A DNA stretch of 4,394 nucleotides from a virus (taxonomy: Duplodnaviria > Heunggongvirae > Uroviricota > Caudoviricetes), in IMG/VR virus record IMGVR_UViG_2778261510_000006, positions 1 through 4,394 of that record; one strand, written 5' to 3'. A program made the translations under genes and the position numbers. Shown one piece after another: positions 3,270 to 4,394 of this stretch. The notes beneath the pieces were generated by a model. It was not told where the DNA came from, ran no database searches, and saw only the letters and a list, made by a program, of their open reading frames with translations. Positions within the stretch are counted from its first letter, which is position 1. Each line of letters opens with the position of its first letter.

Positions 3270-4394
3270 ATGGCAGTAAAGATTTCAGGTGTACTGAAAG
3301 ACGGCACAGGAAAACCGGTACAGAACTGCACAATCCAGCTGAAAGCAAAACGTAACAGCACCACGGTGGTGGTGAACACGGTGGCCTCAGAAAATCCGGA
3401 TGAAGCCGGGCGTTACAGCATGGACGTTGAGTACGGTCAGTACAGCGTTATTCTGTTGGTGGAAGGCTTCCCGCCATCGCATGCCGGGACCATCACCGTG
3501 TATGAAGACTCACAACCGGGTACGCTGAATGATTTTCTCGGTGCCATGACGGAGGATGATGCCCGTCCGGAGGCACTGCGCCGTTTTGAACTGATGGTGG
3601 AAGAGGTGGCGCGTAACGCGTCCGTGGTGGCACAGAACACGGCAGCCGCGAAGAAGTCAGCCAGTGATGCCAGCACATCTGCCCGTGAGGCGGCAACCCA
3701 TGCGACTGATGCTGCAGATTCAGCACGTGCAGCCAGCACGTCAGCCGGACAGGCCGCTTCGTCGGCTCAGTCAGCGTCTTCCAGCGCAGGAACGGCATCA
3801 ACAAAGGCCACTGAAGCCTCAAAAAGTGCTGCCGCTGCAGAGTCCTCAAAAAGCGTGGCGGCTACCAGTGCCGGTGCCGCGAAAACGTCTGAAACGAATG
3901 CTGCAGCGTCACAACAATCAGCAGCCACCTCTGCATCCACCGCGACCACGAAAGCGTCAGAAGCAGCCTCCTCAGCCCGGGATGCGTCGGCTTCAAAAGA
4001 GGCGGCAAAATCATCAGAAACGAGCGCAGCCTCGAGCGCCAGTAGTTCCGCTTCCTCGGCAACGGCGGCAGGCAATTCCGCGAAAGCGGCAAAAACGTCC
4101 GAGACGAACGCTAAGTCTTCTGAAACGGCAGCGGAACAGAGTGCCTCCGCAGCAGCAGACTCAAAAACAGCGGCTGCATCATCTGCCAGCGCCGCGTCAA
4201 CAAGTGCCGGGCAGGCCTCAGCCAGTGCCACCGCTGCCGGAAAGTTGGCAGAAAGCGCTGCATCGTCCGCTTCAAGAGCCACAACGAAGGCTGGCGAAGC
4301 CACTGAACAGGCCACTGCAGCTGCGAGTTCTGCTTCCGCAGCGAAGACATCTGAGACGAATGCGAAAGCGTCGGAAACCCGCGCAGGAGCCTCA
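3270..4394 (+). CDS. stf: Side tail fibre protein Stf, 3'-partial (first 375 codons; no stop within window)
   Basis: Seen in sequence: ATG 3270 preceded by GGGGTG (3261-3266); frame 0 open for 375 codons to the window edge. N-terminus MAVKISGVLKDGTGKPVQNCTIQLKA... Established knowledge / memory: matches the lambda Stf (orf-401) N-terminal tail-attachment domain, followed by an Ala/Ser/Thr-rich shaft. Position immediately after lom with a 64-nt spacer matches the lambda arrangement as I recall it. Confidence 0.93.
   Translation, partial: MAVKISGVLKDGTGKPVQNCTIQLKAKRNSTTVVVNTVASENPDEAGRYSMDVEYGQYSVILLVEGFPPSHAGTITVYEDSQPGTLNDFLGAMTEDDARPEALRRFELMVEEVARNASVVAQNTAAAKKSASDASTSAREAATHATDAADSARAASTSAGQAASSAQSASSSAGTASTKATEASKSAAAAESSKSVAATSAGAAKTSETNAAASQQSAATSASTATTKASEAASSARDASASKEAAKSSETSAASSASSSASSATAAGNSAKAAKTSETNAKSSETAAEQSASAAADSKTAAASSASAASTSAGQASASATAAGKLAESAASSASRATTKAGEATEQATAAASSASAAKTSETNAKASETRAGAS
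3876..4364 (+). repeat. stf: Imperfect in-frame repeats in the Stf shaft (motif AAKTSETNA x3, within an Ala/Ser/Thr-rich low-complexity region)
   Basis: Seen in sequence: AAKTSETNA encoded at 3876-3902, 4086-4112 and 4338-4364 (codons 203, 273, 357; spacings of 70 and 84 codons, both multiples of 7). Copies differ only at synonymous wobble positions (aaa/aaa/aag, acg/acg/aca, tct/tcc/tct, gaa/gag/gag, aat/aac/aat). TSAGQA also recurs at codons 157 and 311 (154 = 22 x 7). Confidence 0.7.

What the first reader, a model, noticed from the sequence alone, without database searches (positions are those of the whole stretch)
3876..4364. Heptad-phased, synonymously diverged repeats in the Stf shaft
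Seen in sequence: the nine-residue motif AAKTSETNA occurs three times with spacings of 70 and 84 codons, and TSAGQA twice with a spacing of 154 codons; all are multiples of 7. Nucleotide copies differ at wobble positions only, so these are old repeats kept at the protein level rather than a recent duplication or assembly artefact. Inference: the periodicity suggests an alpha-helical coiled-coil (probably trimeric) shaft built from heptad-based modules. Such repeats are also plausible substrates for unequal recombination that would change fibre length in steps of whole heptads.
Basis: partly seen in the sequence, partly recalled or inferred. Interest (0 to 1): 0.45.

Follow-up and report, generated by a model that had tools for sequence, protein, structure and literature searches.

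The report
Alanine-serine heptad shaft of Stf
The repeated peptides are real, but they are only the visible tips of one long, unbroken 7-residue repeat that forms the already-described three-stranded alpha-helical rod of the lambda-type side tail fibre, so the finding is correct but ordinary.

Summary
AAKTSETNA occurs at Stf residues 203, 273 and 357, and TSAGQA at 157 and 311. All spacings are multiples of 7.

These motifs are part of a larger feature. From L103 to the window end (S375), Stf is one uninterrupted heptad array: d = Ala in 35 of 36 heptads, g = Ser in 30, a = Ala/Glu/Lys. In full-length relatives it continues to about residue 455.

There is no DNA-level repeat. Codon identity between copies equals the codon-usage expectation, and the longest exact DNA repeat is 10 nt.

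AF2 predicts helix for residues 99-359. The Ala indicator peaks at a 3.5-residue period. Substitutions relative to lambda avoid the a, d and g positions.

Among 110 unique homologues with the same flanks, the shaft has four lengths: 181, 223, 230 and 335 aa. These differ by 6, 1 and 15 heptads. One 112-aa deletion allele joins two AAK(S/T)SET copies across a 7-nt microhomology.

All of this is already published. Ghosh et al. 2012 described the "PCoil" domain: Ala-x-x-Ala/Ser-x-x-Ser heptads, trimeric, alpha-helical by CD, with lengths differing by multiples of seven. Yu et al. 2025 described the Ur-lambda Stf proximal coiled coil, residues 102-393.

Verdict: interpretation supported, already known, low interest.

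The parts
3270..4394 (+). stf (side tail fibre) gene, 5' part: 375 codons, open at the window end
   Evidence: Translation. Pfam PF08400 phage_tail_N covers aa 1-134 with E = 3e-73. 94-96% nt identity to annotated side tail fibre genes of lambdoid phages and 87% to lambda stf. J-lom-stf gene order.
3270..3551 (+). N-terminal collar (beta-sandwich) domain, aa 1-94
   Evidence: Aligns over all 94 residues to PDB 9e7m/9mgh Ur-lambda Stf 1-94, E = 2e-53. The AF2 model matches 9e7m with TMt 0.79.
3576..3641 (+). Start of the coiled coil with a canonical hydrophobic core, aa 103-124. In the same register as the array: a = L103, V110, A117, T124; d = F106, V113, V120
   Evidence: Heptad layout. AF2 helix begins at residue 99. 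Yu et al. place the coiled-coil start at residue 102.
3642..4394 (+). Ala/Ser heptad array, aa 125-375 (36 heptads, unbroken register): b = T/S, c = variable, d = Ala (35/36), e = A/S/K, f = T/S, g = Ser (30/36), a = Ala/Glu/Lys (25/6/3)
   Evidence: The array continues to about aa 455 in full-length close relatives.
3876..3902 (+). AAKTSETNA copy 1 (aa 203-211)
4086..4112 (+). AAKTSETNA copy 2 (aa 273-281)
4338..4364 (+). AAKTSETNA copy 3 (aa 357-365). It lies in the 105-aa block that lambda Stf lacks
4002..4028 (+). Degenerate fourth copy AAKSSETSA (aa 245-253). It is the left breakpoint of the 112-aa deletion allele
   Evidence: Repeat family D1. Deletion junction in L069.
3738..3755 (+). 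TSAGQA copy 1 (aa 157-162), outside the finding's stated range
4200..4217 (+). TSAGQA copy 2 (aa 311-316). Its Ser codon is AGT, against TCA in copy 1
3767..4315 (-). Antisense 182-codon ORF: a compositional by-product, not treated as a gene
   Evidence: ORF list. This antisense frame shares wobble positions with stf, and only 3 stop codons arise in it across all 375 codons, the last at nt 3768. The counterpart is annotated in lambda as orf206b, hypothetical protein.

Best explanation
The region encodes the proximal shaft of a lambdoid side tail fibre (Stf).

After the N-terminal collar domain and a short linker, the chain enters one continuous heptad register at about L103. It stays in that register to the window end, and to about residue 455 in full-length relatives.

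The first three heptads have a normal hydrophobic core (L, F, V, V, A, V). After that the core positions are almost purely alanine: d = Ala, a = Ala with occasional Glu or Lys. Serine sits at the flanking g position.

Three such chains wind into a parallel, left-handed alpha-helical coiled coil. It is a thin rod of roughly 0.15 nm per residue. That gives about 40 nm for the part in this window, about 52 nm in full-length relatives and about 37 nm in lambda. The rod holds the receptor-binding distal half away from the tail.

AAKTSETNA and TSAGQA are recurrences of favoured one- to two-heptad variants within this array. Their spacings are multiples of 7 simply because the whole array is in phase. 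Synonymous sites between copies are fully randomised, so the repeat is maintained at the protein level.

Fibre length evolves by rare block deletions that survive only if they remove whole heptads.

Shown here: the periodicity, the register, the codon randomisation, predicted helicity, core conservation and the length classes. Taken from the literature on homologues: helicity by CD, the trimeric state and rod morphology. Inferred: that this particular allele behaves the same way, and that selection removes out-of-phase indels.
For: - Periodicity: z = 6-8.6 at all lags 7k up to 98.
- Column composition: d = Ala 35/36, g = Ser 30/36, a = Ala 25 / Glu 6 / Lys 3.
- Ala indicator Fourier peaks at periods 3.5 (power 31), 2.33 and 7.0 residues.
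- No Pro and only 8 Gly in 256 residues.
- AF2 monomer predicts helix 99-173 and 186-359, with pLDDT 70-86 over most of it.
- Of 31 amino-acid differences from lambda in aa 125-302, 25 fall on b, c, e and f, and only 6 on a, d and g.
- A register-tracking HMM finds a single phase for 200-330 residues in nearly all of about 200 homologues.
- Anchored shaft lengths are 181, 223, 230 and 335 aa, all equal to 6 mod 7, in 109 of 110 unique sequences. A second junction class has 222, 229 and 236 aa.
- The indels are single blocks of 105, 112 and 154 aa.
- The N-domain equals the solved Ur-lambda Stf collar.
- Ghosh et al. 2012 (PMC3368898): the PfN-PCoil fragment is alpha-helical by CD with Tm about 49-52 C, trimeric by SEC-MALLS and a 16-nm stalk by EM. 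PCoils, Marcoil and MultiCoil predict a trimeric coiled coil, and PCoil lengths differ by multiples of seven.
- Yu et al. 2025 (PMC12617516): Ur-lambda Stf is a trimer with a proximal coiled coil at residues 102-393, and three collar domains feed one bundle.
Against: - No atomic-resolution experimental structure of the Ala/Ser shaft exists. The PDB holds only residues 1-94.
- My AF2 run was a monomer with mean pLDDT 66.5 and pTM 0.25. It breaks the helix at 174-185, probably a fold-back artefact.
- I could not run a dedicated coiled-coil predictor or a trimer prediction.
- An all-alanine core is atypical for coiled coils.
- Two alleles break the rule of 7. L034 has +4 aa from a 12-nt tandem duplication. 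P0074 has -1 aa within a locally garbled stretch.
Confidence: 0.9

Rival explanations
1. The exact peptide repeats come from a recent segmental duplication, or from an assembly or collapse artefact of a repetitive gene.
For: Repetitive, low-complexity sequence. Many database Stf entries are 'partial', so assemblies do break in this gene.
Against: - The copies differ at 5-7 of 9 third codon positions.
- Codon identity between in-phase identical residues is 0.237, which equals the codon-usage expectation. The longest exact DNA repeat is 10 nt.
- Tandem Repeats Finder finds no array in the shaft.
- The same arrangement, residue for residue, is present in dozens of independent contigs and in isolated phages.
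Confidence: 0.01
2. The Ala/Ser/Thr-rich segment is a disordered low-complexity linker or a non-helical fibrous fold such as a beta-structured fibre. On this view the period of 7 reflects something other than an alpha-helical coiled coil.
For: - 25% Ser and 12% Thr are poor helix formers.
- There are almost no large hydrophobic residues after aa 124.
- No Pfam model covers the shaft, and there is no solved structure.
Against: - The dominant harmonic is at 3.5 residues, and the g-d-a stripe is contiguous on a helical wheel.
- AF2 predicts helix throughout.
- CD of the homologous PfN-PCoil fragment shows a reversible alpha-helical transition, and the fragment is a trimer.
- Cryo-EM and cryo-ET of Ur-lambda show a trimeric bundle.
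- Pro is absent and core positions are conserved.
Confidence: 0.04
3. The motif recurrences need no shared ancestry. They arise by convergence, because each heptad position tolerates only a few residues, so identical 6- to 9-mers recur by chance or by selection for one optimal variant.
For: - Any two in-phase heptads are already 40-50% identical.
- The Ser codon families differ (TCA versus AGT) within TSAGQA, and both TCN and AGY codons occupy the g column.
- There is no higher-order period: every in-phase offset scores similarly, and the best 28-aa window has 21/28 identities at offset 84.
Against: - Column-preserving shuffles give three copies of a 9-mer in only 0.3% of trials, and as many repeated 6-mers in only 0.2%. 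Composition alone is therefore insufficient.
- This does not separate ancient duplication from selection for a preferred two-heptad unit. The two remain unresolved.
Confidence: 0.3
4. The repeats act today as substrates for RecA-type unequal homologous recombination that frequently changes fibre length.
For: - Length classes differ by whole heptads.
- The 112-aa deletion allele (L069, P0081 and relatives) has its breakpoints inside the AAKSSET and AAKTSETNA copies.
Against: - The longest exact DNA repeat in this allele is 10 nt. The junction microhomology is only 7 nt, GAAACGA. Both are far below the roughly 20-30 bp minimal processing segment for RecA-dependent exchange in E. coli (my own knowledge).
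- Only four length classes occur among 110 unique sequences, so such events are rare.
- The pattern is better described as microhomology-mediated deletion followed by selection for phase.
Confidence: 0.1

Closest known systems
Ur-lambda Stf proximal coiled-coil domain (Yu et al. 2025, Sci Adv, PMC12617516; PDB 9e7m for residues 1-94)
   Same: Same gene family and same position, J-lom-stf. The first 905 nt of stf are 87% identical without gaps. The N-domain aligns 1-94. Same heptad register and motifs, including AAKTSETNA at 203 and 273 and TSAGQA at 157. Described as a trimer with a coiled coil at 102-393.
   Different: The window's allele class carries an extra block of 105 aa (15 heptads) after about aa 302. 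That block holds the third AAKTSETNA and the second TSAGQA. Its array runs to about 455, against 350 in lambda, which is about 15.6 nm more rod. The distal modules differ among relatives.
PCoil domain of E. coli O157 prophage collagen-like fibre proteins EPclA/EPclB (Ghosh et al. 2012, PLoS One, PMC3368898)
   Same: It follows the same PfN (PF08400) domain, and the cloning primer encodes MAVKIS, as here. It is Ala/Ser-rich and low in complexity, with an Ala-x-x-Ala/Ser-x-x-Ser heptad. [quoted passage not shown]
   Different: PCoil there is shorter (residues about 101-245, a 16-nm stalk), richer in Glu, described as only 'loosely' periodic, and followed by a collagen triple helix. Here the array is at least 273 residues, strictly periodic, and in relatives is followed by the LEDAS..GIVQLSSATNSTSE junction.
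Phage T7 gp17 tail-fibre shaft
   Same: Ala/Ser/Asn/Glu-rich heptad-like segment with S-E-x-N-A units following an N-terminal tail-attachment domain. It gave a weak sequence match, gp17 172-267 against Stf 215-310. From my own knowledge, this gp17 segment is regarded as a trimeric coiled coil.
   Different: The match is not significant (E = 0.27). The N-domain is unrelated, the segment is much shorter, and it contains more charged and large residues. Homology is not established.
Pseudomonas phage DEV gp53 long tail fibre (PDB 9cod; PMC11445570)
   Same: Same architecture: an N-terminal beta-barrel collar domain of about 91 aa, a flexible linker, then a trimeric coiled coil at 115-250 containing AKVSETNAANAAAGSAASATAA. 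The collar fold matches weakly in Foldseek.
   Different: Sequence similarity is marginal (E = 0.07). The phage is a podovirus with a 15-mer collar. Its coiled coil is known only from an AlphaFold model fitted to low-resolution density.

Membership tests
Lambda-type side tail fibre Stf (PF08400-headed fibres) | N-terminal 'prophage tail fibre N-terminal' domain (PF08400) | tested here: met
   E = 3.1e-73, 244.6 bits against a cut-off of 26.6, covering profile positions 1-134 of 134. Also PHROG tail-fibre families 3279, 1419 and 8713.
Lambda-type side tail fibre Stf (PF08400-headed fibres) | N-domain has the fold and sequence of the solved Ur-lambda Stf collar domain | tested here: met
   phmmer against 9e7m/9mgh: residues 1-94 to 1-94, E = 2.2e-53. 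Foldseek: E = 9.7e-14, TMt 0.79, 95% identity.
Lambda-type side tail fibre Stf (PF08400-headed fibres) | Gene position downstream of J and lom | tested here: met
   gpJ domains at 50-2536 and Ail_Lom at 2606-3205. Same order in phage Turner and in lambda.
Lambda-type side tail fibre Stf (PF08400-headed fibres) | Distal receptor-binding part, with tfa (assembly chaperone) downstream | not testable with these tools
   The window ends at codon 375. In the closest full-length relatives, Stf is 900-1180 aa and is followed by a tail fibre assembly gene.
Alpha-helical coiled coil (left-handed, heptad-based) | Seven-residue periodicity with a 3,4 spacing of core positions | tested here: met
   Autocorrelation z = 6-8.6 at all 7k lags. 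d and a columns are Ala 35/36 and 25/36. Fourier peaks at periods 3.5, 2.33 and 7.0 residues.
Alpha-helical coiled coil (left-handed, heptad-based) | Apolar residues at the a and d positions | tested here: met
   Met in an unusual form. L, F, V, V, A, V fill the first three heptads (aa 103-120). After that the core is almost only Ala, with 6 Glu and 3 Lys at a.
Alpha-helical coiled coil (left-handed, heptad-based) | Alpha-helical secondary structure | tested here: met
   By prediction only: AF2 helices at 99-173 and 186-359. Experimental CD exists for the homologous PfN-PCoil fragment.
Alpha-helical coiled coil (left-handed, heptad-based) | Oligomeric state (parallel trimer) and knobs-into-holes packing | not testable with these tools
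   Only monomer AF2 was available. The literature reports a trimer by SEC-MALLS, and three collar linkers joining one bundle in cryo-EM.
Alpha-helical coiled coil (left-handed, heptad-based) | Positive score from a dedicated predictor (COILS/PCoils, Marcoil, MultiCoil) | not tested
   No such tool was available here. High scores are reported for the homologous region of EPclA/B.
PCoil domain (Ghosh et al. 2012) | Ala/Ser-rich low-complexity segment directly after PfN, with an Ala-x-x-Ala/Ser-x-x-Ser period, and lengths that differ by multiples of seven | tested here: met
   37% Ala and 25% Ser. a = Ala, d = Ala, g = Ser. Anchored lengths are 181, 223, 230 and 335 aa, and 222, 229 and 236 aa.
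DNA-level tandem or dispersed repeat (recent duplication) | Copies similar at the nucleotide level beyond what the protein sequence requires | tested here: not met
   Codon identity is 0.237, equal to expectation. The longest exact repeat is 10 nt. Tandem Repeats Finder is negative. The repeat finder families are only 60-80% identical.

The most novel reading that the evidence does not exclude
The complete synonymous scrambling of about 50 near-identical heptads might not be just a matter of age. It might be maintained by selection, as a natural 'recoding' that protects a long repetitive rod from recombinational collapse. On the same reading, the recurrent K(e)-x-S(g)-E(a)-T-N-A(d) units, which place Glu in the core, would be functional landmarks spaced 10 and 12 heptads apart. 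They could set the register or trimer specificity, or serve as docking or hinge points. My data do not exclude this reading, but they do not specifically support it either.
Probability: 0.1. Interest if true: 0.4.

Novelty: already known. Interest (0 to 1): 0.12.

Why it matters
This adds little new biology.

The Ala/Ser heptad rod after the PF08400 domain has been published, with biophysics in 2012 and in-situ structure in 2025. The J-lom-stf block is present in 5023 of 5426 complete E. coli genomes.

The practical value is modest:
- The exact register (a, d and g assignments) and the natural in-phase deletion points give safe cut-sites, in steps of 7 residues, for anyone engineering Stf chimeras or fibre length. 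These points are after about aa 302 (105-aa block), 250/364 (112 aa) and 240/394 (154 aa).
- The lack of DNA-level repeats explains why this repetitive gene is genetically stable.

Tried and rejected
- Tandem Repeats Finder on the window found nothing in the shaft except a 13-nt, 2-copy trace at 3721-3746. The DNA copies are too diverged.
- Pfam has no model for the shaft beyond the last roughly 34 residues of PF08400.
- The PDB sequence search gave only the N-domain. The shaft matches to T7 gp17 (E = 0.27) and DEV gp53 (E = 0.07) are below significance, so I use them only as analogies.
- Foldseek with the monomer model was informative only for the N-domain. The long helices gave no meaningful match.
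- I looked for a higher-order repeat, for example 154 aa, since 357-203 = 311-157 = 154. In-phase identity at offset 154 is 0.495, against 0.32-0.52 at other in-phase offsets. There is therefore no convincing super-repeat.
- I did not attempt a linked-trimer AF2 trick.
- Using the end of the heptad block as a length measure was rejected, because the distal modules differ. I used distances between conserved anchors instead.
- The antisense ORF at 3767-4315 was considered as a gene and rejected as a compositional by-product.
- One literature query failed on a term-length rule.
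Full report
WHAT THE WINDOW IS

The 4394-nt window is the tail-end block of a lambdoid (pro)phage.
- The C-terminal 828 codons of the tip attachment protein J lie at 50-2536 (Pfam Ig_J, Phage_Tail_Tip, Ig_GpJ_C).
- lom lies at 2606-3205 (Ail_Lom, E = 7.5e-117).
- The first 375 codons of the side tail fibre gene stf run from ATG 3270 off the window end (PF08400 phage_tail_N, E = 3e-73).
- The stf part is 94-96% identical in DNA to annotated side tail fibre genes of phages Turner, 2H10, ev099 and others. 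Its first 905 nt are 87% identical to lambda stf.
- The whole window is 98% identical to prophages in E. coli chromosomes. Related copies occur in 5023 of 5426 complete E. coli genomes.

CHECKING THE OBSERVATION

- AAKTSETNA is at Stf residues 203, 273 and 357 (nt 3876, 4086, 4338), with spacings of 70 and 84 codons.
- TSAGQA is at residues 157 and 311 (nt 3738, 4200), with a spacing of 154 codons.
- The three 27-nt copies differ only at third codon positions, at 5, 5 and 7 of 9.
- The TSAGQA pair also differs by a Ser codon switch, TCA versus AGT. That change is synonymous but affects all three positions, so 'wobble only' is slightly wrong.

THE REAL FEATURE IS LARGER

Residue autocorrelation over aa 120-375 is 6-8.6 standard deviations above shuffles at every multiple of 7 up to lag 98. 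It is at or below background at every other lag.

Written in rows of seven, residues 125-375 form 36 uninterrupted heptads:

| Heptad position | Residues |
|---|---|
| b | T/S |
| c | variable |
| d | Ala, 35 of 36 |
| e | A/S/K |
| f | T/S |
| g | Ser, 30 of 36 |
| a | Ala 25, Glu 6, Lys 3 |

Extending the same register backwards puts L103, V110 and A117 at a, and F106, V113 and V120 at d. The coil therefore starts with three conventional hydrophobic heptads directly after the linker.

The motif spacings are multiples of 7 because the whole 273-residue stretch is in one phase.

The exact 9-mer triple is still more than this periodic composition predicts. Shuffling residues within each heptad column gives three copies of any 9-mer in 0.3% of 5000 trials. 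There is no higher-order period: all in-phase offsets give 32-52% identity, and the best local pair is aa 264-291 against 348-375, with 21 of 28 identical.

NO DNA-LEVEL REPEAT

- Identical residues at in-phase offsets use the same codon 23.7% of the time. That is what codon usage alone predicts (0.25 for Ala, 0.18 for Ser).
- The invariant Ser column uses both TCN and AGY codons.
- The longest exact direct DNA repeat in the shaft is 10 nt.
- Tandem Repeats Finder reports nothing relevant.
- The repeat finder families are only 60-80% identical.

A recent duplication or an assembly artefact is excluded. The same sequence also recurs in dozens of independent contigs.

STRUCTURE

- The Ala indicator has its strongest Fourier peak at 3.5 residues (power 31), with further peaks at 2.33 and 7.0. 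This is the classical a/d signature.
- There is no proline in 256 residues.
- AF2 (monomer, 23-sequence alignment) gives the beta-sandwich N-domain, then helices at 99-173 and 186-359 with pLDDT mostly 70-86. The break at 174-185 and the low pTM are what a monomer fold-back of a long rod would give.
- The N-domain matches the solved Ur-lambda Stf collar domain: 9e7m, E = 2e-53 by sequence and TMt 0.79 by fold.
- Between this allele and lambda, 25 of 31 amino-acid changes in aa 125-302 fall on b, c, e and f, and only 6 on a, d and g.

No solved structure covers the shaft itself. I could not run a trimer prediction or a dedicated coiled-coil predictor.

I collected 120 proteins and 80 IMG/VR loci plus phages Turner and lambda. 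I tracked the heptad register with a small HMM built from the window's own heptads.

- Nearly all homologues hold a single phase for 200-330 residues. The window's closest relatives run from 126 to 455.
- To avoid alignment bias, I measured the distance between a conserved N-terminal anchor (VARNA) and the conserved distal junction (RAEDIA..V.LEDA).
- Among 110 unique sequences that distance is 181, 223, 230 or 335 aa, all equal to 6 mod 7.
- There is one exception, at 339 aa.
- A second junction class (LNYRNQAQ) has 222, 229 and 236 aa.
- Independent 50%-identity representatives give the same length classes.
- Five independent length differences are all multiples of 7. The chance of that is about (1/7)^5.

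In a MAFFT alignment the differences are single blocks:

| Block size | Heptads | Alleles |
|---|---|---|
| 105 aa | 15 | lambda, L007 |
| 112 aa | 16 | L069, P0081 and relatives |
| 154 aa | 22 | P0092 |

The third AAKTSETNA and the second TSAGQA both lie in the 105-aa block that lambda lacks.

The 112-aa deletion joins the degenerate copy AAKSSET (aa 245-251) to the NAKASET that follows the third copy. At DNA level the junction sits in a 7-nt microhomology, GAAACGA.

The two out-of-phase alleles are:
- L034, with +4 aa from a perfect 12-nt tandem duplication. In coiled-coil terms this is a 'stutter'.
- P0074, with -1 aa within a locally garbled stretch from a Logan assembly.

So fibre length does change in whole heptads, and at least one event used the repeated motif. 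However, the substrate is microhomology, not the long identity that RecA-type unequal crossing-over needs. The requirement of roughly 20-30 bp is from my own knowledge.

COMPARISON WITH WHAT IS KNOWN

Ghosh et al. 2012 (PMC3368898) studied E. coli O157 prophage fibre proteins with the same PfN head.
- They named the following low-complexity region 'PCoil'.
- They noted an Ala-x-x-Ala/Ser-x-x-Ser heptad.
- PCoils, Marcoil and MultiCoil gave high scores, favouring a trimer.
- CD showed reversible alpha-helical melting at about 49-52 C. SEC-MALLS showed a trimer, and rotary-shadowing EM showed a 16-nm stalk.
- They stated that PCoil length differences are multiples of seven.

Yu et al. 2025 (PMC12617516) resolved the Ur-lambda Stf collar domain.
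- They showed three collar domains feeding one trimeric bundle.
- They modelled a proximal coiled coil at residues 102-393.

Phage DEV gp53 has the same architecture of collar, linker and trimeric coil.

A whole-library HMMER search with the shaft alone finds 379 cluster representatives. The shaft also matches many PHROG tail-fibre families. The module is therefore widespread.

VERDICT

The feature is already described in the literature.

What this analysis adds is small:
- the exact register;
- the demonstration that synonymous sites are fully randomised;
- the anchored length classes;
- one deletion junction inside the motif.

Interest is low.

Noticed in passing
proteins P0140, P0144, P0147, P0160, P0162, P0202, P0217, P0266: Giant proteins of 1900-6200 aa in which Ala/Ser heptad coils of about 80-200 aa alternate regularly with non-heptad spacers of about 170 aa, with up to 28 coil blocks. 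The three alternating-type ones I scanned (P0147, P0160, P0202) match no Pfam family, and they match PHROG tail-fibre families only through the coil parts. They look like 'beads-on-a-rod' giant fibres.
   Followed up: partly
L034 (IMG/VR UViG_2850808358_000003), Stf codons 220-227: A perfect 12-nt tandem duplication, ACTTCAGCATCC, adds 'TSAS' (+4 aa). This is a coiled-coil stutter, and it is the only out-of-phase allele among 110 unique sequences in its junction class.
   Followed up: yes
window 3767-4315, minus strand: A 182-codon antisense ORF shares wobble positions with stf. It stays open only because the shaft lacks Tyr and has few Gln or His codons. The equivalent ORF is annotated in lambda as orf206b, hypothetical protein.
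   Followed up: yes
window 2555-2578 and 3232-3253, plus strand: Terminator-like GC hairpins with T-runs lie directly after J and directly after lom. The second ends about 11 nt before the stf start codon region (GGGGTGAATATG).
   Followed up: partly
homologues P0087, P0017, P0009, P0001 (junctions at Stf aa 260, 281, 301, 324): The same N-domain plus shaft is joined to at least eight different distal modules. Several junctions lie inside the heptad array rather than at its end, so the shaft also serves as a joint for module exchange.
   Followed up: partly
L001 (phage Turner) 8033-8623, minus strand: A DNA invertase gene lies just downstream of tfa in the closest isolated phage. This hints at an invertible tail-fibre segment, as in Mu or P1.
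   Followed up: no
one search hit list; Most database Stf homologues are flagged 'partial', and E. coli genomes carry up to 16 related places. Short-read assemblies evidently often break inside this gene.
   Followed up: no
window 3882-3902, 4092-4112, 4344-4364 (K-T-S-E-T-N-A): In the recurrent motif, Glu occupies the core a position, with Lys three residues earlier at e. This accounts for three of the six Glu at a in the array, an unusual polar core layer of unknown role.
   Followed up: no
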